Made by a program: the position numbers and the translations under genes. From positions 1-54,448 of the IMG/VR virus record IMGVR_UViG_3300017978_000048: 54,448 nt of DNA; one strand, 5' to 3'. The DNA is from a virus. Lineage: Duplodnaviria > Caudoviricetes. The notes under the pieces were generated by a model, which was not told where the DNA came from, did not search any database, and saw nothing but the letters and a program-made list of their open reading frames with translations. Below are positions 5,911 to 27,254 of this stretch, in pieces. Position 1 is the first letter of the stretch, and each line of letters starts with the position of its first letter.

Positions 5911-5939
5911 TTAATCCATTAGTAAAGTAATATCAGTAG

Positions 5940-5947
5940 TATTTAGC
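5940..5947 (-). promoter_or_regulatory. Late-promoter variant GCTAAATA
   Basis: NNTAAATA box 30 nt upstream of the 5910 start; the same variant occurs at 1426-1433 and 44891-44898. Confidence 0.5.
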
Positions 5948-5951
5948 GTTC

Positions 5952-7511: not shown

Positions 7512-9288
7512 GGGCGTTCATTGATTTGCGCAGGTCATTATAAAGAGCCGTGCGGTGTAGAGGTTTCATCTTTGACGGTAGAGCTGCGTGGAAGTCTTTT
7601 TGCTTACCCGCTGCAGCGAATTCGCGCATCTTAGTTCCAGAAACTCCAGACACACCTTCAGCGTCAGGGTCACGTTCACCAGAAGAGTGGACAGTGATAG
7701 ACTTGAATTTGTATTTACCGTGCTTGTGTTCTTGACCGTCATTGTACTTATTAAGAAGTTTCTCATACTCTTCAGTACGATCAGAACCAGCTACAACGTG
7801 CAAGTGTTTAACACCCTTTGAATACATATCAGCAGCGTGGTGCATGATAGTAGGTTTATCTTTAGAAGCACCCACGATGTTAGTTCCTGGGAAAGCGTTC
7901 TTAGCGTGCTTAACCTTAGTGTCAACATCCAATGGGTTCTTTTTAGCGTCTTGACTATGCGACAGAACAACCGAGTGTTCAGCGTTATTCTTCTTGGCTA
8001 CTTCGTGAACCTTATTGATAACTTGTTCGTGTCCAGCAGTCGGTGGATTCATACGACCGAAAGCTAACACGCCGTGTTTCTCATCGGGTTCTTTAGCTGG
8101 ACCACGAGCCTTCAATAAGTTTTGACGGGCGAACTCAGCACGGTTCACTAGCTTAGTTGGCTCAGTGACACCTTTGTGAGTGTGGTTGTAAACGAAACCT
8201 TCAGGCTTAGAAGCTTCACCGCCGATGGCGTGTTCGTAAGAACCTTCGTTGGACTCCAAAGACTTAACCAATTCGTTCTTAGCGTTAGCCAAGTGACCGT
8301 GCATCTTTAGAAGGTTATCGTAATGACCTTGGTGCTTCTTGATATTGTCTAGATGACCTTTTAGTTCATCCAGTTTAGCGTTCTGAGCTTTCTCAGTCTT
8401 CAGCTTACCCACAATCTTCTCATACTTACCAGCGATGTGAGTCTTCAAACCTTCAGCGGTAGGTGAGCTACCATCACGAACTGTTTGGTTGATATATGTG
8501 GCTAGATGTCCACCATCGCCGTGGTGCATAGATGTAGCTTTGTACATCTTGTCTTTGTTTTGCTCGTGGACAGTTTTGGCTTTAGATAGCTCATCCAAAA
8601 CTCGCTTTTGAGACTCAGCGGAGTAGTGAGCGCCTTTAGCGTCATAGTCAGCTGTGTGGTGAAATACGTCAGGGTGTTGACCAAAGTCAGAAGCATCAAC
8701 GTTATGATGAGCTGACATATTTGATAGGTTAGTACCTTCATATTTGGTATGAACGACTACACCTATCTTAGACTTCTTGATAGCTTCAGCCTTTTCACCC
8801 TTGGCTGTATATGTGATAGTGTTAGGTGTAAACGAAACCTTATCATCTTTCTTCTTCAAGTCGTCATGAGTATACATCAAGTCGCCTTGATACACGCCTT
8901 CCTTCGGAGCAACTTTAGGAAAGTGCTTCAATGCAGACTTCAGCTTATCAGCTAGTCCTGGAGCGTGACCGTGGTTCTTGTCGACGTCTTCGGGAGAATA
9001 GTTAATCTTTGGGTTCTTATTGAACGCTGACTTGGACGCCACGAAGAACTTACCATTCTCTGGGTGGTGACCGAACACAACAGAAGGCGAACCATCGTAC
9101 TTCATGGTCAACTTATTGTTTTGTTGACCTTGCTTAGTATGATAGTGAGCTCCATGTAGAGCGTCATATGCATGAGAGAAACCTTCAGCTCCATGGAGTA
9201 AAGGTCGATCTTCAGCGTGATGAATATGCTTTAGCTTAGCACCTTCTTCGGTCGCATCTTCGAATAGGTAATTTAGGAAGTTGATCAT
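7504..9288 (-). CDS. Fusion of a ligase-like covalent nucleotidyltransferase domain and a HIGH-family nucleotidyltransferase
   Basis: N-terminal KYDG (motif I), YQGDLM, EGFV, KLV; C-terminal FGRMNPPTAGHE, VAGSDR, VSGTKMR; CTS-like start MINFLNYLFE. Confidence 0.7.
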   Translation of the reverse strand: MINFLNYLFEDATEEGAKLKHIHHAEDRPLLHGAEGFSHAYDALHGAHYHTKQGQQNNKLTMKYDGSPSVVFGHHPENGKFFVASKSAFNKNPKINYSPEDVDKNHGHAPGLADKLKSALKHFPKVAPKEGVYQGDLMYTHDDLKKKDDKVSFTPNTITYTAKGEKAEAIKKSKIGVVVHTKYEGTNLSNMSAHHNVDASDFGQHPDVFHHTADYDAKGAHYSAESQKRVLDELSKAKTVHEQNKDKMYKATSMHHGDGGHLATYINQTVRDGSSPTAEGLKTHIAGKYEKIVGKLKTEKAQNAKLDELKGHLDNIKKHQGHYDNLLKMHGHLANAKNELVKSLESNEGSYEHAIGGEASKPEGFVYNHTHKGVTEPTKLVNRAEFARQNLLKARGPAKEPDEKHGVLAFGRMNPPTAGHEQVINKVHEVAKKNNAEHSVVLSHSQDAKKNPLDVDTKVKHAKNAFPGTNIVGASKDKPTIMHHAADMYSKGVKHLHVVAGSDRTEEYEKLLNKYNDGQEHKHGKYKFKSITVHSSGERDPDAEGVSGVSGTKMREFAAAGKQKDFHAALPSKMKPLHRTALYNDLRKSMNAHE

Positions 9289-9289
9289 A

Positions 9290-10531
9290 TTAGCTTAGTG
9301 AGAATGCGCCAGCCAAACTCTTATGTGGACCAGAAGAACTCTTAGTTGTAAACGCAGCGACGTTTTGAACCTTACCAGTTTGCTTATGAGTACCCTTGAT
9401 AGTAGTTTGGATACCACCACCGTGAACCACGTGAAGGTTGTCGAACTTAGACAAGTGGTTATCAGCGATCGAGTGAGATGGTTCAATATGAGACACAGCG
9501 GAGCCGTCATCCTTAACCTGAGAGTGGGCTACGATGTGAGGGATATGCGTAGGAGCTGATACGTGTTCACGTACAATGTCACGAAGCTCTTCATCAGACT
9601 TCTTAGACAAACCACCAGCGAAGTGTTTAGCAACGGCACGTTTAGCTTCTAGGGAAGAAGCCTCGGCGGAAGCGGCACGGGACTTAGCTTGTTGAATGAA
9701 AGACAAACGGTCTTTATCAGACTTCATACCATCATGAGCTTTTAGGAACACACCCAAGTGTTCGTGCATGATACCGTTTTTCTTACTTAGAGACTTACCT
9801 TGCTTAACAAGGGCTTCATACTTGGCGTGTTCAGTACGAGCCTTTTCAGCGCCCATCTTATCAATCTTGTATTGGATGTTACGTTGATCGGCGGAACCGT
9901 TGTAACCTAGCTTTTCCATATGACCGTGGTGAGCGTCAGTCAAAGCCTTCATGCTACCTTTTTCAAGACCAGCAAGCTTCTCCATGGAGTCAAGTCCTGG
10001 GTTACGGTAGTTTGGTTTGTTGGAACCGTACTTAGCGGAAACGCCCACGTGACCAGCAGTCTTGCCGTTCTTGTCATGCACACGCACGATCAAGTCAGCA
10101 TTGGAGTTTACGTCTTTAACACCAGTGGTCTTTTCGTGGTCGCCTGGCTTATTAGCTTTATCAGCGTTAGATGTCCAGAAAACGCCACCGATGTGTTGAC
10201 CTGGACCAACGTGACCTTGTTCAGTAAAATGCTTCTTGATACCTTCAGCAGTTTGTTTAGCGTGACGATCAATTTCACTATAAGCAGCTGGACCAATCTT
10301 CTTCATTAGACGGTCATGAACTTGTTGAGGTGTACCAGCGTGGTCTTCGTTCTCAGATTCAGAACGGTGGTGATCGGGCAGCTTAGTATCTGGGTGTAGA
10401 TGCTTGGCTAATAGCAACTCGTGCATCTTACCTTTGTCATCATTCTCCACGCCAGCTGTAGCAGCTGCTTCAAGAAGAAGGGATTCCTCCGTCAATACTT
10501 CTTCTTTTAGAAAACTTTTAAAACTTAACAT
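9290..10531 (-). CDS. Putative PD-(D/E)XK-fold nuclease with capsid-targeting-like N-terminus
   Basis: GKMHELLL helix, NSNAD-LIV...GVSAK (AD...SxK variant core); starts MLSFKSFLKEE. Confidence 0.5.
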   Translation of the reverse strand: MLSFKSFLKEEVLTEESLLLEAAATAGVENDDKGKMHELLLAKHLHPDTKLPDHHRSESENEDHAGTPQQVHDRLMKKIGPAAYSEIDRHAKQTAEGIKKHFTEQGHVGPGQHIGGVFWTSNADKANKPGDHEKTTGVKDVNSNADLIVRVHDKNGKTAGHVGVSAKYGSNKPNYRNPGLDSMEKLAGLEKGSMKALTDAHHGHMEKLGYNGSADQRNIQYKIDKMGAEKARTEHAKYEALVKQGKSLSKKNGIMHEHLGVFLKAHDGMKSDKDRLSFIQQAKSRAASAEASSLEAKRAVAKHFAGGLSKKSDEELRDIVREHVSAPTHIPHIVAHSQVKDDGSAVSHIEPSHSIADNHLSKFDNLHVVHGGGIQTTIKGTHKQTGKVQNVAAFTTKSSSGPHKSLAGAFSLS

Positions 10532-10553
10532 TTGTATCCTTTATCCATTGATA

Positions 10554-10561
10554 TATTTATT
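10554..10561 (-). promoter_or_regulatory. Late-promoter variant AATAAATA
   Basis: Located 23 nt upstream of the 10531 start. Confidence 0.5.
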
Positions 10562-11876
10562 TCGCCATGTAACTAGCTAAAGTGGTAAGCAACTTACCTT
10601 TTTCTATGTAATTTCTAATATAGACGCCAGCGGGTTTCATCTCACGTTTAACTCGAACTGAAACAAGCACATTACCCTTTTCGTCGGAGATAGCCAACTC
10701 AGGCGTTGCCTTATTTGAAATATATGTAGCTTTTAATTTAATGCCGCCGATTAGCTTTTCTAAGTTATCGAATTGATAGACTGAGGCTTCTTGACGTGAT
10801 AGTTGAACCAAAGTAACAGCTGGTTCGTCTAGTGTAGCAAAGTAACGAATACCCGCTGATAGTTGACCGTAGATTTTCTTACGACCTGGACCAGACACCA
10901 TCTTATTGAAGTCGTTAGCCACGCCTTTATATACTGAAGCTATTCCCATCAATACGTCGTTCTGCTTAACACCTTCATAGTAATTCTCTTCGTATCTAGA
11001 AACGTCTACGCCTAGTAATTTAGTCCATAGCATATCTTGCTTATCAAAACCAGAACCGCTTATTTGACCGAACTGTTTAACGTCATCGGCTTTCAACGAA
11101 ACGTTAATGTCTGATTGTTTACCATCAATCAAAACTCGAACGTCAACCTTAGTACCTTTTTGATCACCGATACCAGATGCAACAACTTCAATATTATTCA
11201 CACGGTTGTTTTCATACAGCATCTTTGACCACGAAGTAACAATAGCCGAGTTGGCATACTTAACACTAGACTGAATGATACCAGCTAAAGACACCTGTGT
11301 GGTTTTATCTGTAAGAGCCTGTAGGTTTGAAGGAGCCAAGCTCAACTTAAAACATACGTTGTCTTTAATTTTGGGGTTTTTATTCGGTGAAGGATACATC
11401 ATTTCTTGATGCATCTTCGAGTTGTCCAACTTATCAATAATTTTGATAACATCGGATTCAGAAACTGTTGCGTTCTTATTGATGAAGCGAGCGGTAATAG
11501 CTGCGGCAAATACACCCTCAGCCATGTCACCACGATTACCCTTTGTGGCACCCTTTGCCGCTTTACCACCCATACCGCCAAAGTCACCAGACTTCAAAAG
11601 GTCTCCAAGTGAGTGACGGTCTTTATCGTTCATGACCAGAACGTATCGCGAGTTAGTGGCTCTGGTCTTTAACCACTCGATAGCCTGAGCGAATTGACGA
11701 GGGTCTTTGGATGGATTAAACTCAAGCACTTTACCACCTTCGGTAAAAGCCACTTTCGTGAACACCTTTGTATCACCGCTGGTCATATCAAAAGGTGTCT
11801 TGTTTTTTAGTTTGTTTACGAACGTTTCAATACGTCCTGGACGCTTACGCAGCTCCAAAAGGGATAACTCAGCCAT
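10557..11876 (-). CDS. Putative PD-(D/E)XK restriction-endonuclease-like protein
   Basis: NRGDMAEGVFAAA helix and KVDVRV...INVSLK (D...SLK) catalytic-core pattern. Confidence 0.55.
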   Translation of the reverse strand: MAELSLLELRKRPGRIETFVNKLKNKTPFDMTSGDTKVFTKVAFTEGGKVLEFNPSKDPRQFAQAIEWLKTRATNSRYVLVMNDKDRHSLGDLLKSGDFGGMGGKAAKGATKGNRGDMAEGVFAAAITARFINKNATVSESDVIKIIDKLDNSKMHQEMMYPSPNKNPKIKDNVCFKLSLAPSNLQALTDKTTQVSLAGIIQSSVKYANSAIVTSWSKMLYENNRVNNIEVVASGIGDQKGTKVDVRVLIDGKQSDINVSLKADDVKQFGQISGSGFDKQDMLWTKLLGVDVSRYEENYYEGVKQNDVLMGIASVYKGVANDFNKMVSGPGRKKIYGQLSAGIRYFATLDEPAVTLVQLSRQEASVYQFDNLEKLIGGIKLKATYISNKATPELAISDEKGNVLVSVRVKREMKPAGVYIRNYIEKGKLLTTLASYMAK

Positions 11877-11898
11877 TCCATCTCCAAAGATTATCTAC

Positions 11899-11906
11899 TA
11901 TTTATA
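11899..11906 (-). promoter_or_regulatory. T4 late promoter TATAAATA
   Basis: Exact consensus 23 nt upstream of the 11876 start, which has a GGAG RBS. Confidence 0.8.
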
Positions 11907-11920
11907 ATCCATGAATGTGG

Positions 11921-11945
11921 AAAAACCCAGAACAAGTCTGGGTTT
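11921..11945 (-). terminator. Rho-independent terminator closing the DNA-modification operon
   Basis: AAACCCAGA-CTTGT-TCTGGGTTT stem running into a T tract, immediately after the 11949 stop. Confidence 0.75.
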
Positions 11946-11948
11946 CGT

Positions 11949-12554
11949 TTAGCCTAGTTGTTTATCTAGGAAGGCTAGGATCTTAGCCTGTTCATCCAAG
12001 TTCGTATTATTGAACTCGGTAGTATATGACATCAACTCAAAGTTAGACAGTAAGTTGTTGTATTTAGTTTCGCGACCTCGGAGGAACTGTTCAGATTGGT
12101 CAGAGCCTCGGTCAGCGTAACGTTCTTTCAGAGTGTCTTCAGGGGCTTTCAGATACACAACATGAAGTTCAGTATCAGGTAATTCCATGGCGAACTCTAG
12201 GAAGCTCTGGTTGAATACACGGTCACCTTCGAAAAGAACGTTACAGTTGTGTGAAGCGATCCATTCCTGAAGCGCTGGCTGAACCGCCATTGATAGTCGA
12301 TCAGTTCCAGCGAATGTTTCGCCTTCTTCGTACTTACCTAGAATGTACAAATCACGGCTTGATTCATAGTTAGCTGATACCAACTTAGCTGGCTCAACTG
12401 GATGAAAGTTCTTACCTTCCATGTACTTACGAAACAGCGTAGTCTTACCAGTTCCTGGGCGACCGCCCACGGCGATAATCTTACGAACCTTCTTAGGGTT
12501 TGTGATCAATTCAACTTTGATTGTATCAGCGATGCCGATATTAGATTTAAACAT
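11949..12554 (-). CDS. P-loop kinase; candidate 5-hydroxymethyl-pyrimidine DNA kinase
   Basis: GGRPGTGKTT Walker A, GTDRLS, FEGDR and R..RGS lid motifs; lies next to an aGPT-Pplase gene as in thymine-hypermodifying phages. Confidence 0.7.
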   Translation of the reverse strand: MFKSNIGIADTIKVELITNPKKVRKIIAVGGRPGTGKTTLFRKYMEGKNFHPVEPAKLVSANYESSRDLYILGKYEEGETFAGTDRLSMAVQPALQEWIASHNCNVLFEGDRVFNQSFLEFAMELPDTELHVVYLKAPEDTLKERYADRGSDQSEQFLRGRETKYNNLLSNFELMSYTTEFNNTNLDEQAKILAFLDKQLG

Positions 12555-12972
12555 TCTCGATTTCCTTAATCATAGCTTTCAATTCAGCTTCAGTGAAGAC
12601 CCAAACTCGCCCGATGAAGTGGTTCACGTCAGTGTCTTCATCTTTACGTTTAGTGAAGGTAGTCTTCTTTATAATATCGCGAGCCATTTCGCGAGCAATC
12701 TTTTCTTTGATTTCGTTGACGTAGTCTGGGGCGACTTCCTTCAACTTCATAATCTCAGCTTCAGTGACCTTATGGTCAACAGCCACACGGTTGAGTTCAT
12801 ATTTATCTAAAATATTATCAACGATTGAATTTTTAACCACACTTGTAGATGCCGCCGAGATGCCAGACATGGCAGTATTAGTAATTGCCGTGTTAGCGAT
12901 TGATATTGTATGACCACCGAGACCATCTGCGATTAGGTTATATGCCTTTGTCAATTCGTCTAATTCACCCAT
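12547..12972 (-). CDS. Hypothetical protein within the modification operon
   Basis: 141 aa ORF overlapping both neighbours; no motif recognised. Confidence 0.6.
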   Translation of the reverse strand: MGELDELTKAYNLIADGLGGHTISIANTAITNTAMSGISAASTSVVKNSIVDNILDKYELNRVAVDHKVTEAEIMKLKEVAPDYVNEIKEKIAREMARDIIKKTTFTKRKDEDTDVNHFIGRVWVFTEAELKAMIKEIENV

Positions 12973-13988
12973 TAAAACATCTCCAATCCAACCAACACAG
13001 GTTGTTCATCATCAAACATCCACTCAAGTCTTTCCAGCTTACCACTGCGGATGAATTTGGTAAACTGTTCTTTATCAACGCCAGTCTTATGATCTAGTCG
13101 AGTGTCAATAGTTTCTGTACGGGAGTTCCATAGAACTTCCCAATCAATACCATTCCACTCATCACCTTCAGCCTTTAGAACTTCTTCAGCTTGACGGTCT
13201 AGGTAATAGCTCAAATATCGTCCATGTTTCTCTCTGAAGATTTTCTTGAAAGAACACAGGCAGGTTTCCATAGTGAAGTAGTCAATCTGACTAATCAGGT
13301 CAGGAAACCTAGTCTTCATTTCGCATATAATGCTGCGGCTATGTGATTCAAGATTCGCATACTCTCTTCCATCGAGTCTTCGATCAATATCGTTATCTTG
13401 GCCAATGGTAAGAAGTAATCCATTACGATGAGAACGGGAACCATCAAAATCATCCAGCATAAGAGAAGTAGGCTCAATACGAATACCAGCAGTATGCTTG
13501 AGATGCTGTAAATAAAACCAAGTGGAATAACGCCCAAATTTATGAAGGTTTCCTTTAAGTACGTCCCACAACGCATCAAAGTTTTGAGCCTCATTGTCTC
13601 CGTAGTACGATTCGAGTTTTTCACGTTGGCTTCCTTTGCCGATAAATTTCTGATAAGACTCAAACATGGCAGGTAGATGACCCTTGTTCCACTTTGTGTC
13701 AGTTTGATAACGTAGACGTTTGTAGTTGGCAGTATTCCACTGAGTCATACGATCAACTGTGGCTAGTTCATAATCAGGAAACTCATTCATCAAAACCCAA
13801 GCAGTGGGTAATTGATACGTGTTACCGTATAACCAAGCGAGCCATAGCTTCTGTTCAGAGTTATGCTCGAATCGTTTGTTCAGATAGTTTGTAGCCCAAA
13901 CAGCGGGATCACAATCATTATACTGTAACGACCAAGCATACCAACGAATGAAGGCTTCTCGTCTGTTTTCTTTTAGCCTGTAGTCCAT
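12972..13988 (-). CDS. aGPT-Pplase (clade 2-like) / amino-acid:DNA transferase, HhH glycosylase-like fold
   Basis: DCDP, WLAWLYGNTY, QTDTKW, FGRYSTWFYLQHL, GSRSHRNGL and ETCLCSFKK motifs. Confidence 0.8.
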   Translation of the reverse strand: MDYRLKENRREAFIRWYAWSLQYNDCDPAVWATNYLNKRFEHNSEQKLWLAWLYGNTYQLPTAWVLMNEFPDYELATVDRMTQWNTANYKRLRYQTDTKWNKGHLPAMFESYQKFIGKGSQREKLESYYGDNEAQNFDALWDVLKGNLHKFGRYSTWFYLQHLKHTAGIRIEPTSLMLDDFDGSRSHRNGLLLTIGQDNDIDRRLDGREYANLESHSRSIICEMKTRFPDLISQIDYFTMETCLCSFKKIFREKHGRYLSYYLDRQAEEVLKAEGDEWNGIDWEVLWNSRTETIDTRLDHKTGVDKEQFTKFIRSGKLERLEWMFDDEQPVLVGLEMF

Positions 13989-14395
13989 TTATTCAACGCC
14001 AACTTAATAAGGTTAATCACTTCAATATGCATACTATTACCTTCAGCGAAAGCTGGGTCAGGAATCTTTTTAACTCCTGGGATTAGGTTAGACAACTTTT
14101 GAGCCTTGGACACTTCTCCGAACTGTTCAACGAAACGCTTTTCGTTTGCGTCATCCATGTAGAAAATATGATCCGCCCAATCAACTAACTCTTGTGTGAT
14201 AATTGATGAGCGAATACCTTCAGTCTTATATCCAGAATCAACTAGAACATCGCGCATTTTCTTGGCAGTGATTTTACCGTTTGTGGTTTTCAAACCACAC
14301 GACTTAACTTCCCAATCAGGGAAGTCTTGCTTAGCAATAATCTCAGCAGCTGCCGAACGATTCACGTTACCGTGACAAACGAACAAAACTTTCAT
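13973..14395 (-). CDS. Low-molecular-weight PTP/ArsC-family phosphatase
   Basis: FVCHGNVNRS CX5R P-loop and IPDP acid loop. Confidence 0.85.
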   Translation of the reverse strand: MKVLFVCHGNVNRSAAAEIIAKQDFPDWEVKSCGLKTTNGKITAKKMRDVLVDSGYKTEGIRSSIITQELVDWADHIFYMDDANEKRFVEQFGEVSKAQKLSNLIPGVKKIPDPAFAEGNSMHIEVINLIKLALNKWTTG

Positions 14396-15363
14396 TCACT
14401 GAGTTCCAAAATACGTTTATATGTTTCTGTAGAAGGAGTATCCATATCATCAATTTTAACTGATTCTCGAATTAAAGTCAAGCGATCGTTTACAACCTTG
14501 CGAGAGTTTTTATCGAAGTTTGTAAATTGATATACTTGCTCAGTCTCAAACTCATATGGTTGGAAGTCAGGGAATGTGTATTTATTACCATTCAATAATT
14601 CAACGGGAGCTGCGTCATCATCGTGAATAGCCAAGTCCAAGAAATCACGGCACCAGTTAATAGCTGAACGCATTTCGCCAGCCTTTAGTGTTCCTGGGAA
14701 GTGACGGAACTCGATTGTGTTAGTTTCTTCGAACAGTTGACGTAGGTTAATACCTGCACGTGGGCATTGGAACCAAGCAGGGTTTCCTTTGGCGTCTTTA
14801 TGGGCATGCTCATGCCAGAATTGTTCTGGTGTTGTAGCCGCCATCATAGCTTCATAACGAGCCTGAGGAAGTTTGTGTTGGTGAGAAGTCTTACGACGAT
14901 TCATACGCTTCTTAGCCCACTCGTATTGAAGCGGAGGCATAGTCTTTGGATCAGGAACTGGGATAGTCTCCACGATATCAAAGGCTTGTTGTTGGTAAGT
15001 ATGAACGTACTTCAGAACCTGCTTCAACATCTTCAGGTTTGTGTTAAGACCTGGGACTCGGATATGAATGTGAAGGTTGCTACGATAATTAACAATCGGC
15101 GATGGTCCATTATCACGGAGGAACTTATTGATCTTAGCGATGTGTTCAACTTGCTCGTCGATGTTAAATGTAGGGCGAGTGTTGATCTCGCCACCGAAGT
15201 GATACAACTTACCTTGAGGGTCGTTAGCAATACCTGTAGAACTCACACAGGTATTATCCAAAGAGTTCCATGATGCGCCATCTGGTAATTCTAGAATACG
15301 GCGATCACAGTTACCATACTCAAGCTCAACGCCATAACTCCACTTATCAGTTGAAAAACCCAT
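14392..15363 (-). CDS. COOH-NH2 ligase (amidoligase, glutamine synthetase/GCS-like fold)
   Basis: GVELE, GEINT, LHIHI and TIEFR..PGT motifs; start chosen at 15363 (GGGGAG RBS). Confidence 0.75.
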   Translation of the reverse strand: MGFSTDKWSYGVELEYGNCDRRILELPDGASWNSLDNTCVSSTGIANDPQGKLYHFGGEINTRPTFNIDEQVEHIAKINKFLRDNGPSPIVNYRSNLHIHIRVPGLNTNLKMLKQVLKYVHTYQQQAFDIVETIPVPDPKTMPPLQYEWAKKRMNRRKTSHQHKLPQARYEAMMAATTPEQFWHEHAHKDAKGNPAWFQCPRAGINLRQLFEETNTIEFRHFPGTLKAGEMRSAINWCRDFLDLAIHDDDAAPVELLNGNKYTFPDFQPYEFETEQVYQFTNFDKNSRKVVNDRLTLIRESVKIDDMDTPSTETYKRILELSE

Positions 15364-16153
15364 CGAGTGTCTCCCCATTCTTTACATTATCTTTGTGCGC
15401 CTTAGCAAAGGCGATTCTCATTTTAACACCGACTTCGAGGGATTGGTTCTTAGCACCTTCCTCTTCTTTCAAGGTTACATACTTAGGGTGTAGCTCTTGA
15501 AGTCGGAACATTGCTTCACGGTTATTGGCGGCAGTACGAGTAGTAGAGCATCCACCTTCAGCGTTGGCTTTCTTTTCGACGGCAATATGTTCACCAGTAT
15601 AGTGAAGCTGCTTACCAGATTCCAGTACAGCCAAAGGTACGTGGAAGTCTTCGAAGTATCTCATGGCGTCGTATCTGATTCCTTTTTCCGCCAGATAGTC
15701 TCTGTTGACGAAGGAAGAATGACTGGGCTTACCGTAGAAGTATTCAGAGTCATTATTGTGAGACATGAAAGAATTAGACAACCCGCAGAATACGTCACCG
15801 CTTTGGAGCCATTGTTCCATAAGGTCAAGAAACTCTCCGCAGTCGGCTTGCTTGTGGTTTTTAGTTTTAACTGTTTCATCGCGTTTGTAAAATGTCAAGT
15901 CATCATCAAATTGACCCACCAAAGAAGTCGGAGCTTGCTCCAAAATCCATTGACGGGTCTTGCCGATATTTCCGATACATTCTTCGGGAACATCTACACG
16001 ATTTGGCCAATCGTGTTTCTCATCTTTAGGGCAGACCAAGAATACTCGGTCTTTCCATCGCTCTGGAATTGACTCCAGAGTATATTGTTTCCCTTCACGC
16101 TTCAGTGTCGGGATGTAAACTATCAGTTTGTCCATGTTGTAGGTCTTTCGCAT
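15347..16153 (-). CDS. GT-A glycosyltransferase (TET/JBP-associated type)
   Basis: IPT..R, IG.TRQWIL, FDDDL (DxD), EDF and GGCS..R motifs. Confidence 0.8.
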   Translation of the reverse strand: MRKTYNMDKLIVYIPTLKREGKQYTLESIPERWKDRVFLVCPKDEKHDWPNRVDVPEECIGNIGKTRQWILEQAPTSLVGQFDDDLTFYKRDETVKTKNHKQADCGEFLDLMEQWLQSGDVFCGLSNSFMSHNNDSEYFYGKPSHSSFVNRDYLAEKGIRYDAMRYFEDFHVPLAVLESGKQLHYTGEHIAVEKKANAEGGCSTTRTAANNREAMFRLQELHPKYVTLKEEEGAKNQSLEVGVKMRIAFAKAHKDNVKNGETLDGFFN

Positions 16154-16835
16154 CAGGTATATGTACAGCCTTCATTTCCATAGTCAAATCGCTATTGAAG
16201 GTAATATATGTATTCATGGGAATTTCCATGGTTGGGAGAAACAACTCCGCACGTTTAGGAATATCTGCCGTTGAAGTAATTATACTACCATTTGCCATTG
16301 TAGTCAAATATAAAGGTCGTTTGCCATTGCGATACACTCGCAAAGTCTTATTGACGCTTAGTTCGCAAACAGCCAGTGATGCATCTTTCCAATGACTCAA
16401 AGGTGAGTGATCAGCCAATGAATGTAGAAGTAACTCAGTATCATTACGACCTTCACACTTGTAACCGTACAACTTCTCCCAGTCTTCAGGAAGGGCTTGA
16501 GTAATAACACCGTTGTGTACCACTGAAGTTTCTTCGTTGTAGATTGGTTGATTGAACTGTAGATCAGATGTCGAGTAACGGCAGTGACCGATTAGGTACA
16601 AGTTACCATCCTTGTTGAGTAGATCTTTGAAGTTGTCTTTATGTAAATGCAACTCGATAAACTCATCAGCTGGGAGAGCATCCTTGATAGTGATAATCTT
16701 ATCAGACCAGTGCGGGAGAAAAGACATACCAGTAGCGTGCATCCCTCGAATTTTAGATTCAAGGAACACACGGCGTAGGGCTTCAAAGTCCTTAAAACTA
16801 GGTTGCTTAAGGACAGCTCCGATCACGGCACACAT
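16095..16835 (-). CDS. Stand-alone class II (Ntn) glutamine amidotransferase
   Basis: Catalytic Cys2 (MCAVIG), RG..ATG, GHCRYST, HNGVI and DTE motifs. Confidence 0.85.
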   Translation of the reverse strand: MCAVIGAVLKQPSFKDFEALRRVFLESKIRGMHATGMSFLPHWSDKIITIKDALPADEFIELHLHKDNFKDLLNKDGNLYLIGHCRYSTSDLQFNQPIYNEETSVVHNGVITQALPEDWEKLYGYKCEGRNDTELLLHSLADHSPLSHWKDASLAVCELSVNKTLRVYRNGKRPLYLTTMANGSIITSTADIPKRAELFLPTMEIPMNTYITFNSDLTMEMKAVHIPDAKDLQHGQTDSLHPDTEA

Positions 16836-18193
16836 TAGGAGAAGAACTCGTCTAGTGAACCAGCAGCTGCTTCAGGGTGGTTCTTTAACAACTGCTCACG
16901 ACCAACGGCTTGTTCGCAGTAGTCGTACCATTCTTTACTTTCCCACATTCCTGGATATACACCGTTGAAACGAGGGCGATAGTGTTTGTGGTTCACGTCA
17001 TTCTTACATTGATCAACGAATGCCTTGCGAGCGTCTTCGTATTCCTTAGTACCCAAAGTCAACATACCTTCGTGGAAGAATGCGATGATAGAGATACGTT
17101 CAGCTGTAGGATCTTCGAGGATCAACTCAGTATTGCCGTGAAGACCAGCTTGATTATTAACAAACAGTAAATCACCTGGACGAACGTCAACAGCATAACC
17201 AATTTCAGGGAAAACAAGATAAGCACCTTTGTATGAATCAGAGTTACTAAACACACAGATATTGGCGAAGCCGTTATCCATGTTAGCAGGGTCATAGTGA
17301 GCCGCTGTACGGAAGTTACGGTTCACGGTGATAGTTGAGAAAGGAGTATCAGGAACCAAGAAGCGTTGGTCGATTTTATCGGCGGCAGCTTTCTGATTAC
17401 CATAACGCCATGGCAACATTTCCTTGAACGCTTTGGCTAGGTGCTTCAAGTATGGATATGACTTGGCAAACTTCTCTGGGTTCTTTTCAGTGTATGACGT
17501 AGCACGACCGTAAGGGATACGTGGATAGCGATCATACCAACCAGCGATACCTGAGTTAACAGGGTTAGCATAAGTTGTCTTGGAGATCAATTCGTTCTCG
17601 ACCCACTTAGCTTCATCAGAAGCTGCAGCTGGTTCCATACGACGAGCTTTCTCGACCCAGTCATCGAACTGGAAGTTTTGATCAGCTACAGAGTCGCGGA
17701 GCCATACTTGAGAACGGTTAGACATAATGTCTTTGTTATCAGCGAACTTAGCTTTGATGGCTTCGATAGGATCGTCACCAGTCAAGTTGGCTTTACCTTT
17801 TTGGAACGCTTCTAGAACTTCCCATTGATAAGCCGTAACCCAGTCGCGACCTAGAAGTTTCTCACCACGTGGACCAGCGGCGATGCCACGGTTCTGTGTT
17901 TCAACAGCTGCGTCACGTAGACCTTCGTAGGCAGACTTAACCATCTCAGGAGAGAAGTAGTTCTTACGGAACTTGAAGACAATGTTCTGTTCGTTCAACG
18001 CTTTAGTACAGTTACCGCATTCTTTGTCGCAGTCTTCAGCGCCAATCTCAGTGGCACACTTAGGCGGCAAGTACAAGTCCATATCGGATTGTACCAAAGT
18101 ATGGTAGTGACTCTCGTCTAGCCAAGTACCGATCAAATCGGAACGAGGTGTAACATCAGGCGCATCCAAAACAACAACTTTAACTTCACTCAT
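16835..18193 (-). CDS. TET/JBP-family Fe(II)/2-oxoglutarate dioxygenase
   Basis: NRG.AAG, FSTITVN.NFRTAAHYD (HxD), LHGNT (H) and ERISIIAF (R) motifs. Confidence 0.85.
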   Translation of the reverse strand: MSEVKVVVLDAPDVTPRSDLIGTWLDESHYHTLVQSDMDLYLPPKCATEIGAEDCDKECGNCTKALNEQNIVFKFRKNYFSPEMVKSAYEGLRDAAVETQNRGIAAGPRGEKLLGRDWVTAYQWEVLEAFQKGKANLTGDDPIEAIKAKFADNKDIMSNRSQVWLRDSVADQNFQFDDWVEKARRMEPAAASDEAKWVENELISKTTYANPVNSGIAGWYDRYPRIPYGRATSYTEKNPEKFAKSYPYLKHLAKAFKEMLPWRYGNQKAAADKIDQRFLVPDTPFSTITVNRNFRTAAHYDPANMDNGFANICVFSNSDSYKGAYLVFPEIGYAVDVRPGDLLFVNNQAGLHGNTELILEDPTAERISIIAFFHEGMLTLGTKEYEDARKAFVDQCKNDVNHKHYRPRFNGVYPGMWESKEWYDYCEQAVGREQLLKNHPEAAAGSLDEFFS

Positions 18194-18204: not shown

Positions 18205-19611
18205 TTAAAACTTAAACCCTTGGAAATCACGTTGGCTTTCTTTCATACGTGATCCAAAATCGCTCTTATCGAATAACGGCTTATCATCTTTTACATGACC
18301 AGCGTCAGATAATCCTTCTTGAGCAGAGGCTTCAACATCATATAGTTTCATCTTAGCTCTATCAACACCGATAACGAATCGCTTGAAATACGATGGATCG
18401 TTATAACGGTTCTTCAATTGCTTAACAATAATCTGGTTCAACTGCTCAAGTTCCTCATTAGAAACCAACGCAAACATAAAGTCAGCGGTAGCAGGCAAAC
18501 CGAACGATTCAGAAGTATCTTCAAGTCCTGGGTCACTGTTAGTGTAACCTGAACGAGTAGTCTGAGTCGCAGATACAATCGGTACATTATATTCAACTGC
18601 CAATCCACGGAGTTCTTCAGCGATAGCTTTAACATAAGTGTAGGAGTTAACCGAACCACCTTGCTTCATACGCTGAGAGGAACAAATATTTAGATAGTCA
18701 ATAAAGATGATATCTGGAGCAAAGTCACGTTTCAGTTTTAGTTCTTCCAGCAAAGCACGGAAGTGACCAGCGTGAGCAGAAGCAGTGGGGTATTCTTTAA
18801 CAATCAGTTTACCTTGAGTCTTCTTAACCAGCTTTTGAATACGGCTCTCGTAGATATCTTTATCAACAACCTTCAATTCATCCATGGACAGGTTCAACAA
18901 GTTCGCGTCAATACGTTCAGCGATTCGTTCCTCTGCCATTTCCATAGTAATATATAGAACGTTTTTTCCCTGCACTAAACAGGAAGCGCCAACGTGACAC
19001 ATGAACAGGGACTTACCAACACCAGTACCAGCCAAACAGATATTCAGAGTCTTCTTGGACAAACCACCCTTAGTGATTTTGTTAAACATATCCAAGTCGA
19101 ACGGAATCTTCTCTTCAATACGGTGATAGTAATCATAACGTGAAGCGAAGTCATCAAGGTAATCGTGACCAACGCTAGAGTCGAACGACACAGCGAGGGC
19201 GTCAGATACTAAAGCAGGGATAGCATCAGGGGTATGAGTACCGTCTTTACCTTCGTAGATTTTAATAGCACCCATGATAGCAAGGTACACGGCACGGTCT
19301 TTACAGAACTTCTCAGTGTTCTCAACTAACCAATCTTGGTTGATTGGAGCCTGAACCAGAGTCTCTTTAATGTACGTGCCGATATCACCGACTTCTTTAT
19401 CAGTGACACCTTTAGCATTACTCACCTCAATACTCAGAATCTCTGGAGTAAGAGGCTTGTTATACTTGTTGAAGAAGTCAACGATCTGGGTCATGATCAC
19501 CGACTCTTTACGATCCGAGAAATACTCACGCTTTAGAAACGGAATTACCTTTCGGCAATACGCTTCATCAAACATAAGGTTACTCAGAATCTGTTGTTCT
19601 ATTCTCATCAA
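18205..19611 (-). CDS. 41: Replicative DNA helicase gp41
   Basis: AGTGVGKS Walker A, IDYLNI, SATQTTR, QLKNRY; DnaB-like T4 helicase. Confidence 0.95.
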   Translation of the reverse strand: MMRIEQQILSNLMFDEAYCRKVIPFLKREYFSDRKESVIMTQIVDFFNKYNKPLTPEILSIEVSNAKGVTDKEVGDIGTYIKETLVQAPINQDWLVENTEKFCKDRAVYLAIMGAIKIYEGKDGTHTPDAIPALVSDALAVSFDSSVGHDYLDDFASRYDYYHRIEEKIPFDLDMFNKITKGGLSKKTLNICLAGTGVGKSLFMCHVGASCLVQGKNVLYITMEMAEERIAERIDANLLNLSMDELKVVDKDIYESRIQKLVKKTQGKLIVKEYPTASAHAGHFRALLEELKLKRDFAPDIIFIDYLNICSSQRMKQGGSVNSYTYVKAIAEELRGLAVEYNVPIVSATQTTRSGYTNSDPGLEDTSESFGLPATADFMFALVSNEELEQLNQIIVKQLKNRYNDPSYFKRFVIGVDRAKMKLYDVEASAQEGLSDAGHVKDDKPLFDKSDFGSRMKESQRDFQGFKF

Positions 19612-26693: not shown

Positions 26694-27254
26694 TTAGGTA
26701 CGATTTCGTCTCCAGTAGAAATCAAATGCATTAAAGTTATTCTTGACGTACATATCATATAAAGCGATACGGTCAAGGTAAACATCTTCAGCTAACGTTA
26801 TCGGCGTAGCAGGTTCAATATGTACAGTGGCGTCTGACTCACCGTACTCTGAAACGACAGTCATATCATTCTTACGAGCGATATGTTTCATGGCTCCATT
26901 TTCTGAGAGGCAATGCATAAACACTTCAGTGATACCACGAGTACGAAGCCAAGTAACGGCACGGTCAAACATAGCTTGAGCGTAACCTTGGTTTCTATAA
27001 TCAGGGTCTACCGAGCAACCTAACTCAGCTTCACCGTCGGCGATTGTAGCGTGACAAGCAGCCACAAGCATACCGTCAATATGATCAACCCCGAACCATT
27101 TACAGTCTGTGTCAAACGACTTAGTGATGTAGCTAATAATGTAATCGTCAGATACTGTTCCACCGAAACGTAGTCGGCGGTCTTCTCCGCGAAGGGTTGT
27201 TAAATGATTGATAAGTTTTTGCTTATCTAATACAGATAGTTTTCTTGGTGTCAT
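26694..27254 (-). CDS. GNAT-family acetyltransferase
   Basis: SVDPDYRNQGYA acetyl-CoA binding loop; N.AM..IARK; DR.LRF N-terminal motif. Confidence 0.85.
   Translation of the reverse strand: MTPRKLSVLDKQKLINHLTTLRGEDRRLRFGGTVSDDYIISYITKSFDTDCKWFGVDHIDGMLVAACHATIADGEAELGCSVDPDYRNQGYAQAMFDRAVTWLRTRGITEVFMHCLSENGAMKHIARKNDMTVVSEYGESDATVHIEPATPITLAEDVYLDRIALYDMYVKNNFNAFDFYWRRNRT

What the first reader, a model, noticed from the sequence alone, without database searches (positions are those of the whole stretch)
11949..18193. Hybrid DNA-hypermodification operon: TET/JBP + GATase + glycosyltransferase + amidoligase + phosphatase + aGPT-Pplase + kinase
Seen: eight overlapping or abutting genes directly after the gp41 helicase, closed by a terminator, seven with recognisable catalytic motifs. 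Established: P-loop 5hmU-DNA kinase plus aGPT-Pplase/amino-acid:DNA transferase hypermodify thymine in phages such as ViI, M6, phiW-14 and SP10, which get 5hmU from a dUMP hydroxymethylase. Phage TETs are usually paired with a C5-cytosine methyltransferase and glycosyltransferases; JBP plus a GT makes base J. Here both toolkits are merged, no C5-MTase or hydroxymethylase is in the operon, and an amide-forming pair plus a phosphatase are added. Inference: post-replicative T->5hmU oxidation, then branching into glycosylation and/or phosphorylation with amine transfer, giving a possibly uncharacterised base.
Basis: partly seen in the sequence, partly recalled or inferred. Interest (0 to 1): 0.9.

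Follow-up and report, generated by a model that had tools for sequence, protein, structure and literature searches.

The report
Thymine hypermodification gene island in phage
A fragment of a T4-like phage carries an eight-gene operon that most likely oxidises thymine in the phage's own DNA and then decorates it with amine-, amide- and sugar-type groups; the general scheme is already published, but this enzyme combination and its product are not described.

Summary
Eight overlapping or abutting minus-strand genes (11949-18193) follow a DnaB/gp41-type helicase and end at a hairpin terminator. Seven match Pfam families above their curated cut-offs: TET/JBP, class-II GATase, TAGT glycosyltransferase, Amidoligase_2, LMW-PTP, amino-acid:DNA transferase (AADT, formerly aGPT-Pplase) and P-loop kinase 3. 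Catalytic residues are intact.

The window is a whole IMG/VR record, about 34% of a T4-like genome. In 81 related IMG/VR loci the site after the helicase is a modular island. TET-GATase-AADT-kinase is the recurring core. GNAT, amidoligase plus LMW-PTP, and three unrelated glycosyltransferases are swappable tailoring cassettes.

Islands combining a glycosyltransferase with the kinase/AADT branch occur in 8 of 81 loci. The TAGT version occurs in only one, a 99% identical copy of this phage.

No C5-methyltransferase or ThyA-family hydroxymethylase was found in the window or in a complete relative, which does have ThyX. This supports thymine as the substrate.

The concept of a phage T-dioxygenase feeding kinase, AADT and GATase is already in print (Lee 2021; O'Toole 2026). 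The glycosyltransferase/amidoligase/phosphatase cassette and the final base are not. Verdict: new variant of a known kind, moderately interesting.

The parts
18205..19611 (-). DnaB/gp41-type replicative helicase. It is the upstream neighbour and conserved anchor of the island, not a modification enzyme.
   Evidence: PF03796 3.7e-20 and phrog_19 4.6e-131. It lies next to the TET gene in most related loci.
16835..18193 (-). TET/JBP-family Fe(II)/2-oxoglutarate dioxygenase (5mYOX), 452 aa. Predicted thymine-to-5hmU DNA dioxygenase.
   Evidence: PF12851 1e-24 and phrog_24024 4e-140. H299-x-D301, H352 and R366 are invariant in 24 of 24 homologs. AF2 model pLDDT 78.2. Foldseek top hits are CcTet, TET2, NgTET1 and CMD1, best E 1.5e-9.
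16095..16835 (-). Stand-alone class-II (N-terminal Cys) glutamine amidotransferase domain, 246 aa.
   Evidence: PF13522 4.9e-10. The profile aligns to the E. coli GlmS glutaminase domain (1xff/4amv, E 0.006-0.009), with the N-terminal Cys and the HCRYST, HNG and NDTE blocks matched and invariant in 9 of 9 homologs.
15347..16153 (-). TET-associated glycosyltransferase (TAGT, GT-A / JGT-like), 268 aa. The true start is possibly Met7.
   Evidence: PF20691 5.2e-9 and phrog_842 1.9e-32. [quoted passage not shown] Among related loci it is present only in L004.
14392..15378 (-). Amidoligase_2-family ATP-dependent COOH-NH2 ligase, 328 aa.
   Evidence: PF12224 6e-8. It has 64-80% identical orthologs in 10 further IMG/VR loci (variants B and G), beyond the near-identical L004. 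In all 11 loci, L004 included, an LMW-PTP gene follows it. It has a 40% homolog in phage Simon, again followed by an LMW-PTP.
13973..14395 (-). Low-molecular-weight phosphatase (LMW-PTP fold), 140 aa.
   Evidence: PF01451 5.9e-17. It has the C7-x5-R13-S14 loop and D113-P114. It overlaps the amidoligase gene by 4 nt.
12972..13988 (-). Amino-acid:DNA transferase (AADT, also called aGPT-Pplase clade 2, Pplase2 or DADT), 338 aa.
   Evidence: PF18724 1.2e-23. tblastn gives 27-29% identity to 379 phage records, including ViI-type Salmonella phages and one annotated 'aGPT-Pplase clade 2'. E241 and C245 are invariant in 10 of 10 homologs.
12547..12972 (-). Conserved 141-aa protein of unknown family. 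The N-terminus is variable and the C-terminal ~90 aa are conserved.
   Evidence: No Pfam, PHROG or NCBIfam match. It has 91 homologs, all unnamed. The AF2 model has pLDDT 58.3 and is unusable. The gene is absent from L092 and L093, and it lies directly after TET in L053 and L054.
11949..12554 (-). P-loop kinase (Ploopntkinase3), 201 aa. Predicted 5hmU-DNA kinase.
   Evidence: PF18751 1.3e-10. Walker A at G31-T38. 39% identical to a Caulobacter phage Cr30 protein that lies near the TET and AADT-like genes.
11924..11944 (-). Hairpin plus T-run, an intrinsic-terminator-like site closing the operon.
   Evidence: Read. RNAfold gives -12.6 kcal/mol for the 31-nt segment. It was not listed by the consensus scan.

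Best explanation
This is a post-replicative thymine-hypermodification island of a T4-like phage.

General claim (about 0.75). The TET/JBP enzyme hydroxylates thymine in phage DNA to 5-hydroxymethyluracil. The P-loop kinase phosphorylates that hydroxyl. The AADT displaces the phosphate with a nitrogen or oxygen nucleophile. The remaining enzymes tailor the product, giving DNA that host nucleases recognise poorly.

Specific chemistry (inferred, each step about 0.2-0.45).
- The stand-alone glutaminase supplies the nucleophile as ammonia, giving 5-aminomethyluracil. Alternatively it processes a glutamine-derived adduct.
- The amidoligase forms an amide on the appended group. It plays the role that GNAT acetyltransferases play in sister islands.
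- The LMW-PTP, its fixed partner, removes a phosphate. That phosphate is carried either by the ligated moiety or by unreacted 5-phosphomethyluracil.
- The JGT-like glycosyltransferase glycosylates 5hmU sites that escaped amination, as in base J. The DNA would then carry two kinds of modified thymine.

Shown here: gene families, intact catalytic residues, operon structure, conservation and modularity, and absence of alternative 5hmU or 5mC sources in relatives. Not shown: any enzymatic activity or any modified base.
For: Families and motifs.

Operon structure: gene overlaps and terminator.

Core conserved. All 26 of 26 related loci with a close AADT homolog also carry the GATase. The 8 loci with a divergent AADT-like gene carry none. 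The GATase stays next to the AADT in three different gene orders: the standard one, L064/L065, and L073.

Thymine rather than 5mC. PF00145 was found in 1 of 12 TET-bearing records (only G002). It is absent from the window, from the CheckV-100% relative G001, and from the complete genomes of Cr30, DLP_6 and C48C1. PF00303 was found in 0 of 9 IMG/VR records. ThyX is present in G001, G002 and G003.

Tailoring logic. Sister islands place a GNAT where this one has amidoligase plus PTP. In PaMx11 an acetyltransferase acetylates 5-aminomethyl-dU (PMC8989533). The AADT mechanism goes through an exocyclic methylene that accepts varied nucleophiles (same paper), and AADT-family enzymes also take diamines (PMC13458397 abstract).

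Amidoligase-PTP pair. It recurs in phage Simon between an AADT and a bona fide 5-HMUDK, with a ThyA-family gene nearby.

Glycosyltransferase. 24 of 81 related loci have TET plus a glycosyltransferase only, so glycosylation of 5hmU is a common fate in this lineage.

Literature. Phage T-dioxygenase activity is demonstrated, and linkage to GATase, kinase and AADT is stated (PMC13229309).
Against: There is no biochemical or sequencing evidence of a modified base.

The window is only about 34% of the genome, so a methyltransferase or hydroxymethylase elsewhere in this phage cannot be excluded. The complete relative G001 carries a different cassette (variant C).

This TET is 452 aa, while the characterised phage T-dioxygenases are about 290-300 aa. 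Some Clade C1 enzymes lacking a ParB partner were inactive in E. coli assays, and no ParB_N was found here.

The kinase is not in the characterised 5-HMUDK families. Burke 2021 also found kinase plus aGPT-Pplase in C5-MT/TET contigs, so these enzymes could act on 5hmC.

The ammonia-donor idea rests on co-occurrence among related phages, which are not independent samples.

In-island glycosyltransferases occur only together with amidoligase-PTP (8 of 8 loci, probably two acquisitions). This argues somewhat for a sequential rather than a branching role for the glycosyltransferase.

The GATase has distant homologs in LUZ24/tf clusters next to amidoligases, which keeps a GATase-amidoligase partnership possible.
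Confidence: 0.6

Rival explanations
1. Single sequential pathway. The glycosyltransferase does not act on 5hmU. It acts on a hydroxyl of the group built by AADT, amidoligase and LMW-PTP, for example one exposed by dephosphorylation. The result is one elaborate glycosylated amide-linked thymine adduct rather than two kinds of modified T.
For: Within GATase/AADT islands, a glycosyltransferase is found only where amidoligase plus PTP are present (8 of 8 loci: variant A has 1, variant B has 7). It is never found in the 26 GNAT-type islands. Two unrelated glycosyltransferases (BLASTP E 1.6) occupy the same slot between the GATase and the amidoligase. The genes overlap the amidoligase gene.
Against: The 8 loci probably represent only two acquisition events. 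Variant G (L092-L094) has amidoligase plus PTP without any glycosyltransferase. TAGT/JGT-like enzymes are known to act on hydroxymethyl-pyrimidines. In the same lineage, 24 loci pair TET with a glycosyltransferase alone.
Confidence: 0.25
2. Cytosine route. A C5-methyltransferase encoded in the unseen two thirds of the genome supplies 5mC. The TET makes 5hmC, and the kinase, AADT and glycosyltransferase hypermodify cytosine.
For: The window is about 34% complete. Burke 2021 describes C5-MT/TET contigs with a P-loop kinase and aGPT-Pplase. One relative (G002) has a C5-MTase about 80 kb from its TET genes.
Against: No PF00145 match in the window, in the CheckV-100% relative G001, or in the complete genomes of Cr30, DLP_6 and C48C1. 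Overall 11 of 12 TET-bearing records have none. O'Toole 2026 reports that only 6% of 5mYOX contigs co-occur with a C5-MT and assigns the GATase/kinase/AADT-linked clade to T-dioxygenases.
Confidence: 0.07
3. Part of the cluster is not DNA-directed. GATase, amidoligase and LMW-PTP act on a small metabolite or on proteins, as proposed for the LUZ24-type amidoligase/GAT-II/ATP-grasp clusters. Alternatively the phosphatase targets host phosphoproteins. Only TET, kinase, AADT and the glycosyltransferase touch DNA.
For: GATase homologs in LUZ24 and tf sit with amidoligases, an ATP-grasp enzyme and a gamma-glutamyl cyclotransferase, with no TET or AADT annotated. LMW-PTPs are classically protein phosphatases (NCBIfam weak hits to Wzb-type enzymes).
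Against: The genes are interleaved and translationally overlapped with the DNA enzymes. The GATase co-occurs with the AADT in 26 of 26 loci. The amidoligase-PTP pair sits between the AADT and the 5-HMUDK in phage Simon. An amidoligase homolog lies beside 7-deazaguanine DNA-modification genes in Vibrio phage 2.275.O. Making a donor metabolite for the AADT would still be part of the same pathway.
Confidence: 0.08

Closest known systems
Phage 5mYOX T-dioxygenase gene neighbourhoods (O'Toole et al., PNAS 2026, PMC13229309; I read the abstract and sections 5, 6, 11 and 12, plus passages found by term search)
   Same: A PF12851 dioxygenase without a neighbouring C5-MT, linked with GATase, P-loop kinase and AADT. 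Glycosyltransferases are the commonest co-occurring domain. These neighbourhoods were mined from IMG/VR, the collection this window comes from.
   Different: The characterised enzymes are about 290-300 aa, and this one is 452 aa. The GATase/kinase/AADT-linked subclass is described there as ParB-associated, and no ParB_N was found in the window. 'Amidoligase' and 'phosphatase' occur 0 times in the main text. Downstream chemistry was not studied.
Tet/JBP-containing thymidine-hypermodification contigs (Lee et al., NAR 2021, PMC8989533, Fig. 2 sequences 22-25; I read section 21 and passages)
   Same: Tet_JBP instead of a dUMP hydroxymethylase, next to kinase and aGPT-Pplase2. Amidoligase and glutamine-amidotransferase domains are noted as co-associated with unknown function. 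A modular gene pool is proposed.
   Different: Their contigs were recovered with 5-HMUDK queries (M6 gp54, ViI gp67, PhiW-14 gp37). The kinase here matches PF18751 and not the HMUDK models, so this lineage may not have been retrieved. No glycosyltransferase or phosphatase is mentioned.
PaMx11 pathway to 5-acetylaminomethyl-dU (AADT gp46, FAD lyase gp47, acetyltransferase gp48, kinase gp49; PMC8989533)
   Same: Kinase plus AADT, then an amine-acylating step. Sister islands here (variants C and D) carry a GNAT in the tailoring slot.
   Different: In PaMx11, 5hmU comes from a nucleotide-level hydroxymethylase and the amine comes from glycine via a flavin lyase. Here there is a TET and a GATase and no flavin lyase, and an ATP-dependent amidoligase plus a phosphatase replaces the acetyltransferase. 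I found no detectable homology between the variant-C GNAT and any cultured phage protein.
Base J synthesis in kinetoplastids (JBP1/2 plus JGT)
   Same: A TET/JBP-family thymine hydroxylase plus a GT-A glycosyltransferase with the R...DDD...EDY/F motif.
   Different: There is no J-binding or SNF2 domain; only PF12851 matched. A kinase/AADT branch is added, and the setting is a phage rather than a eukaryote.
Phage C5-MT + TET + GT cytosine hypermodification (Burke et al., PNAS 2021, PMC8256090; passages read)
   Same: A TET-family enzyme, TAGT-type glycosyltransferases, and sometimes a P-loop kinase and aGPT-Pplase.
   Different: Those clusters carry an adjacent C5-methyltransferase and act on 5mC. 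None is present here.
Phage Simon (PQ683277, unannotated) cluster
   Same: AADT, amidoligase (40% identity), LMW-PTP (32% identity) and a DNA kinase in one block.
   Different: It uses a ThyA-family enzyme (PF00303 2.2e-22) and a canonical 5-HMUDK (PF18723 3.8e-42) instead of TET and PF18751. No homolog of the window's GATase or glycosyltransferase lies within the 18.9-kb locus.

Membership tests
TET/JBP (5mYOX) dioxygenases, PF12851 | Profile match above the curated cut-off | tested here: met
   87.1 bits against a cut-off of 34.9, residues 223-375.
TET/JBP (5mYOX) dioxygenases, PF12851 | HxD...H iron triad and 2-oxoglutarate-binding Arg | tested here: met
   H299, D301, H352 and R366 are invariant in 24 of 24 aligned homologs.
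TET/JBP (5mYOX) dioxygenases, PF12851 | TET-like double-stranded beta-helix fold | tested here: met
   AF2 pLDDT 78.2, pTM 0.68. Foldseek top hits are CcTet, TET2, NgTET1 and CMD1, probability 1.00, TM 0.3-0.5.
Phage T-dioxygenase (thymine-specific 5mYOX) | Oxidises T rather than 5mC | not testable with these tools
   Context only. There is no C5-MT in 11 of 12 TET-bearing records, and ThyX is present in relatives.
ParB-dependent 5mYOX subclass (O'Toole 2026) | Neighbouring ParB-like activator gene | tested here: not met
   No PF02195 match in the window at E<=1 or in G001. There is a weak sub-threshold hit (18 bits) in a 455-aa ORF of the variant-C island of G003, and that gene has no homolog in the window. 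The window is a 34% fragment.
AADT / aGPT-Pplase clade 2, PF18724 | Profile match above the cut-off | tested here: met
   84.5 bits against a cut-off of 26.2. 27-29% identity to ViI-type and other phage homologs.
AADT / aGPT-Pplase clade 2, PF18724 | Essential active-site Cys with a neighbouring Glu (Lee 2021) | tested here: inconclusive
   E241 and C245 are invariant in 10 of 10 homologs. I did not align them to M6 gp51 or ViI gp247. No PDB sequence match by phmmer or by profile.
5-hmdU DNA kinase (5-HMUDK; PF18748 + PF18723) | Match to the HMUDK P-loop and helical-domain models | tested here: not met
   Neither model appears at E<=0.01. The best match is PF18751 Ploopntkinase3, 1.3e-10. Phage Simon's kinase does match PF18723 at 3.8e-42. 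So this kinase may work like a 5-HMUDK but is not a member of that family.
Class-II (Ntn) glutamine amidotransferase | N-terminal catalytic Cys and glutamine-binding blocks | tested here: met
   Cys2 directly after Met1. The HCRYST, HNG and NDTE blocks align to the GlmS glutaminase domain and are invariant in 9 of 9 homologs. There is no synthase domain (246 aa).
TAGT / GT-A DNA glycosyltransferase (JGT-like), PF20691 | Profile match and the R...DDD...EDY/F motif | tested here: met
   36.8 bits against a cut-off of 27.5. R19, DDD83-85 and EDF168-170 were found by pattern search. The motif is taken from the preprint. No residue-by-residue alignment to JGT was made.
Amidoligase_2, PF12224 | Profile match above the cut-off | tested here: met
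   33.3 bits against a cut-off of 22. Catalytic residues were not assessed. No PDB homolog by sequence.
LMW-PTP, PF01451 | CX5R(S/T) phosphate-binding loop and a downstream Asp-Pro | tested here: met
   62.7 bits against a cut-off of 23.2. C7-x5-R13-S14 and D113-P114. That the Asp acts as the general acid is recalled knowledge, not tested.

The most novel reading that the evidence does not exclude
The island would make a thymine derivative that has not been described. The stand-alone glutaminase feeds ammonia to the AADT, so that 5-phosphomethyluracil is converted directly to 5-aminomethyluracil. This is a route different from the glycine/flavin-lyase route of PaMx11. The ATP-dependent amidoligase then N-acylates that amine with a phosphorylated acid. 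The LMW-PTP unmasks a hydroxyl, and the JGT-like glycosyltransferase glycosylates it, giving a glycosylated N-acyl-aminomethyluracil. In addition, amidoligase plus LMW-PTP would be a portable two-gene tailoring module shared by TET-type and hydroxymethylase-type phages.
Probability: 0.12. Interest if true: 0.8.

Novelty: new variant of a known kind. Interest (0 to 1): 0.5.

Why it matters
Phage DNA hypermodifications defeat restriction and other nuclease defences, and they supply enzymes for DNA chemistry. It is published that phage TET/JBP enzymes can make 5hmU in situ and are linked with kinases, AADTs and GATases. What the GATases, amidoligases and other co-associated enzymes do is explicitly left open (Lee 2021; O'Toole 2026).

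This lineage offers a natural dissection kit. One conserved core is combined with at least seven alternative tailoring cassettes at the same genomic site, in phages whose other genes are 50-85% identical. Two further points add to what I could find in print:
- the amidoligase is fixed to an LMW-PTP rather than to the GATase;
- the same pair occurs in a ThyA-type phage.

Cultured relatives exist (Caulobacter phage Cr30, Stenotrophomonas phage DLP_6). Their TET genes are annotated 'SNF2 DNA repair protein', so part of the prediction can be tested on real virions.

Tried and rejected
Searches that found nothing:
- Megablast of the operon against 50,697 phage records: no match.
- The search for related loci with the glycosyltransferase: only L004.
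- tblastn of the variant-C GNAT against phages: no match. I therefore could not link it to PaMx11 gp48.
- PDB sequence searches: GATase single sequence, none; amidoligase, only chance-level hits with E>0.3; AADT single sequence and profile, none.

The 141-aa protein:
- No family in Pfam, PHROGs or NCBIfam.
- 91 unnamed homologs.
- AF2 model pLDDT 58.3, so I did not use it for a fold search.
- ESM Atlas gave no usable hit.
- Complex prediction of TET with residues 48-141 of this protein returned 'no answer'. I count that neither for nor against binding.
- I considered it a possible ParB substitute because it follows TET directly in L053 and L054. It is absent from L092 and L093 and from many TET loci, so I leave it unassigned.

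Methods that proved uninformative:
- The genome-wide PF13522 search missed GATases that tblastn shows in G001 and G004, so its negative for phage Simon is uninformative.
- Two Pfam scans of pooled window ORFs give family tallies only. Most hits were not mapped to ORFs.

Ideas considered and rejected:
- 'GATase + amidoligase as an obligate amide-forming pair': rejected as obligate. Ten loci have GATase-GNAT-AADT with no amidoligase. LUZ24/tf-type clusters keep a looser partnership possible.
- Membership of the kinase in the 5-HMUDK family: rejected.

Sources not available:
- Iyer et al. 2013 (NAR 41:7635), which I recall as the source of the TAGT, aGPT-Pplase and Ploopntkinase family names, is not held. 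What I say about it is from recall.
- Supplements of all papers were closed.

Literature searches behind 'not in print':
-;
- term look-ups inside PMC13229309 (amidoligase 0, phosphatase 0) and PMC8989533 (glycosyltransferase 0; phosphatase 1, unrelated).
- These cover main texts of the held library only.

Full report
OBSERVATION

They start 11 nt after a DnaB/gp41-type helicase gene (18205-19611; PF03796 3.7e-20, phrog_19 4.6e-131). Successive genes overlap by 1, 59, 32, 4, 16, 1 and 8 nt. A hairpin followed by a T-run lies directly after the last stop codon, at 11924-11944. I read it, and it folds at -12.6 kcal/mol. The consensus terminator scan did not list it. All 62 ORFs I called in the window are on the minus strand.

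FAMILIES AND CATALYTIC RESIDUES

Seven of the eight proteins match Pfam families above the curated cut-offs:
- TET/JBP: PF12851, 1e-24
- GATase: PF13522, 4.9e-10
- TET-associated glycosyltransferase: PF20691, 5.2e-9
- Amidoligase_2: PF12224, 6e-8
- LMW-PTP: PF01451, 5.9e-17
- Amino-acid:DNA transferase: PF18724, 1.2e-23
- P-loop nucleotide kinase 3: PF18751, 1.3e-10

Per protein:
- TET. H299-x-D301, H352 and R366 are invariant in 24 of 24 homologs. An AlphaFold2 model (pLDDT 78.2) finds CcTet, TET2, NgTET1 and CMD1 as best PDB matches.
- GATase. It begins Met-Cys. Its profile aligns with the glutaminase domain of E. coli GlmS across the conserved blocks, which are invariant in 9 of 9 homologs. 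It has no synthase domain.
- Glycosyltransferase. It carries R19, DDD83-85 and EDF168-170. [quoted passage not shown]
- Phosphatase. It has the C-x5-R-S loop and an Asp-Pro.
- Kinase. It has a Walker A motif. It does not match the models of the characterised 5-hmdU DNA kinases (PF18748, PF18723) at E<=0.01.
- The 141-aa protein. It has no family, 91 unnamed homologs and an unusable model (pLDDT 58.3).

WHAT THE WINDOW IS

The window is a whole IMG/VR record that CheckV estimates at 34% of a genome. The rest of the window holds T4-like genes, seen as Pfam tallies: RegA, clamp and clamp loader, UvsY, tail tube, prohead protease, scaffold and DNA ligase. A RecA/UvsX-like ORF sits next to the helicase (named from its sequence and position, not searched).

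There is no near-identical cultured phage. Full-length TET homologs of 42-44% identity occur in Caulobacter phage Cr30, Stenotrophomonas phage DLP_6 and phage C48C1. They are annotated there as 'SNF2 DNA repair protein' or as hypothetical.

A MODULAR ISLAND

I collected 81 distinct related IMG/VR loci (75 and 8, minus 2 duplicates). I classified them by tblastn with the window's proteins and with cassette proteins from relatives (Pfam of cassette proteins).

| Variant | Gene order after TET | Loci |
|---|---|---|
| A | GATase-TAGT-amidoligase-PTP-AADT-141aa-kinase (this window's arrangement) | 1 (L004, 98-100% identical to the window) |
| B | As A, but with an unrelated 362-aa GT1-like gene in the glycosyltransferase slot | 7 |
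| G | As A, with no glycosyltransferase | 3 |
| C | GATase, distant amidoligase-like gene, GNAT, 433/451-aa unknown, AADT, kinase | 16 (some truncated) |
| D | GATase-GNAT-like-AADT-141aa-kinase | 10 |
| E | 358-aa unknown, divergent AADT-like, kinase | 3 |
| H | Divergent AADT-like plus kinase | 6 |
| F | TET next to a 449-aa GT1 glycosyltransferase only | 24 |
| - | Two TET paralogs with GATase and AADT (L073) | 1 |
| - | Nothing recognisable next to TET (several are contig ends) | 10 |

Three points follow:
- The three glycosyltransferases are not detectably similar to each other.
- All 26 of 26 loci with a close AADT homolog carry the GATase. None of the 8 complete loci with a divergent AADT-like gene does.
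- The 'hybrid' of a glycosyltransferase with the kinase/AADT branch is therefore real. It is a minority form (8 of 81 loci), and the TAGT version is unique to this phage in the material I could reach.

THYMINE OR 5-METHYLCYTOSINE

- A C5-methyltransferase profile (PF00145) matched 1 of 12 TET-bearing records. That record is G002, a 249-kb genome with two TET paralogs.
- PF00145 did not match the window, the CheckV-100% relative G001 (78% TET identity), five further fragments, or the complete genomes of Cr30, DLP_6 and C48C1.
- The ThyA/hydroxymethylase profile (PF00303) matched 0 of 9 IMG/VR records. Among the cultured TET phages it matched only Cr30, at 372.9 bits.
- ThyX is present in G001, G002 and G003.
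- These profiles did find positives elsewhere, so the negatives carry weight.
- Limits: the window itself is a fragment, and G001 carries cassette C rather than A.

THE AMIDOLIGASE TRAVELS WITH THE PHOSPHATASE

- In all 11 loci with a close amidoligase ortholog, the LMW-PTP gene follows it.
- The unannotated phage Simon (PQ683277) has the same pair, at 40% and 32% identity. There it is embedded in the block AADT - unknown - amidoligase - LMW-PTP - 5-HMUDK (PF18723 3.8e-42) - Nmad5 - ThyA-family gene (PF00303 2.2e-22) - PolA. This is a pre-replicative-type thymidine-hypermodification cluster with no TET.
- A 26% identical homolog lies beside 7-deazaguanine genes in Vibrio phage 2.275.O.
- Distant homologs of the GATase (24-28% identity) sit in LUZ24- and tf-type clusters with amidoligases, an ATP-grasp enzyme and a gamma-glutamyl cyclotransferase.

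MECHANISM

Established elsewhere:
- Phage 5mYOX enzymes oxidise T to 5hmU in DNA (PMC13229309).
- 5-HMUDK makes 5-phosphomethyl-dU. Clade-2 aGPT-Pplases then displace the phosphate through an exocyclic methylene that accepts amines, hydroxyls and even thiols (PMC8989533).
- The same enzyme family can transfer diamines (PMC13458397 abstract).
- PaMx11 acetylates 5-aminomethyl-dU.
- An ATP-dependent amide ligase acts on a DNA base in phage S-B43 (PMC12783734).

Inferred here, with rough probabilities:
- TET makes 5hmU from T (about 0.8).
- The PF18751 kinase phosphorylates it (about 0.7).
- The AADT substitutes the phosphate (about 0.7).
- The GATase provides ammonia as the nucleophile, giving 5-aminomethyluracil (about 0.35). 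Otherwise the donor is an amino acid or polyamine and the GATase trims or amidates it.
- The amidoligase forms an amide on the appended group, in the slot where sister islands have a GNAT (about 0.5).
- The LMW-PTP removes a phosphate from the ligated moiety or from unreacted 5-phosphomethyluracil (open).
- The JGT-like glycosyltransferase glycosylates residual 5hmU (about 0.45), or a hydroxyl of the adduct (about 0.35).

COMPARISON WITH WHAT IS KNOWN, AND NOVELTY

- Lee et al. 2021 already reported contigs where a Tet_JBP protein replaces the dUMP hydroxymethylase next to thymidine-hypermodification genes. They also noted amidoligase and glutamine-amidotransferase domains of unknown role.
- O'Toole et al. 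2026 demonstrated phage T-dioxygenases. They state that one clade is consistently linked with GATases, P-loop kinases and AADTs, and that glycosyltransferases are the commonest neighbours.
- Burke et al. 2021 described TET with kinase and aGPT-Pplase in C5-MT contexts.
- So the central idea of the finding is in print.

I did not find the following in the main texts I could search:
- a glycosyltransferase plus amidoligase plus LMW-PTP cassette;
- the fixed amidoligase-phosphatase pairing and its occurrence in a ThyA-type phage;
- the 452-aa TET form;
- the set of cassette variants at one site.

No product has been determined for any of these. I rate it a new variant of a known kind, with interest 0.5.

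LIMITS

- Everything functional is inference from sequence and context.
- Related phages are not independent samples.
- Supplements were closed, and Iyer et al. 2013 was not held.
- The complex prediction gave no answer.

Noticed in passing
window 7504-9288 (-) and 3616-5910 (-): The 594-aa protein downstream of the island is DUF6267 (1e-91). Its C-terminal ~190 aa are 45% identical to the N-terminus of the 764-aa protein, which matches Cytidylyltransferase-like PF01467 (9.4e-6). So two paralogous nucleotidyltransferase-like domains lie just past the island's terminator. Homologs of the 594-aa gene also follow the island in relatives. Whether they supply activated donors is unknown.
   Followed up: partly
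window 26694-27254 (-): A GNAT acetyltransferase (PF00583, 1.6e-11) lies about 8.5 kb upstream of the island. In sister phages, GNATs sit inside the island. Whether this one acts on DNA is unknown.
   Followed up: no
L084 (phage Simon, PQ683277) about 5850-13530: This unannotated sewage phage carries AADT, a 456-aa unknown, an amidoligase, an LMW-PTP, a 5-hmdU DNA kinase, Nmad5 and a ThyA-family gene in a row, next to PolA. That is an uncharacterised thymidine-hypermodification cluster sharing the amidoligase-phosphatase pair.
   Followed up: partly
L001 (Caulobacter phage Cr30) 8998-17891; also L002 (DLP_6): The TET homologs are annotated 'SNF2 DNA repair protein'. Cr30 also has an AADT-like gene (30% identity, 12024-13253), an inositol-1-phosphate-synthase-like gene and a kinase homolog (39% identity; 'terminase small subunit' in RefSeq). 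I found no paper in the held library linking Cr30 to hydroxymethyluracil.
   Followed up: partly
L005 10139-11614: One variant-B island has a tryptophan-halogenase-like flavoenzyme (PF04820, 7.9e-93) inserted between the AADT and the 141-aa gene.
   Followed up: no
L073 / G002 (249-kb record): This record has two TET paralogs (45% and 43% identical to the window's) about 1.8 kb apart, followed by GATase and AADT. It is the only relative with a C5-methyltransferase, at G002:93959-94927, about 80 kb away.
   Followed up: no
L018 12513-13868, L009 12489-13790: The 433/451-aa unknown protein of variant-C islands gives a weak sub-threshold ParB_N hit (18 bits, E 1.4e-4, in G003). It could correspond to the ParB-like activator described for some phage T-dioxygenases. 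It has no homolog in the window.
   Followed up: partly
L085 (Vibrio phage 2.275.O) 7878-8990: An amidoligase homolog (26% identity) lies immediately upstream of a QueF-like reductase, a QueC-like gene, an Ntn aminohydrolase and GTP cyclohydrolase I. These are 7-deazaguanine DNA-modification genes, which hints at amide tailoring of an aminomethyl-deazaguanine.
   Followed up: no
L097 (LUZ24) and L098 (phage tf): Distant homologs of the GATase domain are the N-termini of ~510-530-aa proteins. These lie in a cluster with two COOH-NH2 ligases, an ATP-grasp enzyme, a gamma-glutamyl cyclotransferase and MazG, just upstream of the primase/helicase. I am not aware of a known function for this cluster.
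   Followed up: no
window, one ORF among 28351-51449 (not mapped): There is a dATP/dGTP diphosphohydrolase N-terminal domain hit (PF18909, 1e-35). It probably corresponds to the MazG-like gene that follows regA in Cr30 and DLP_6.
   Followed up: no
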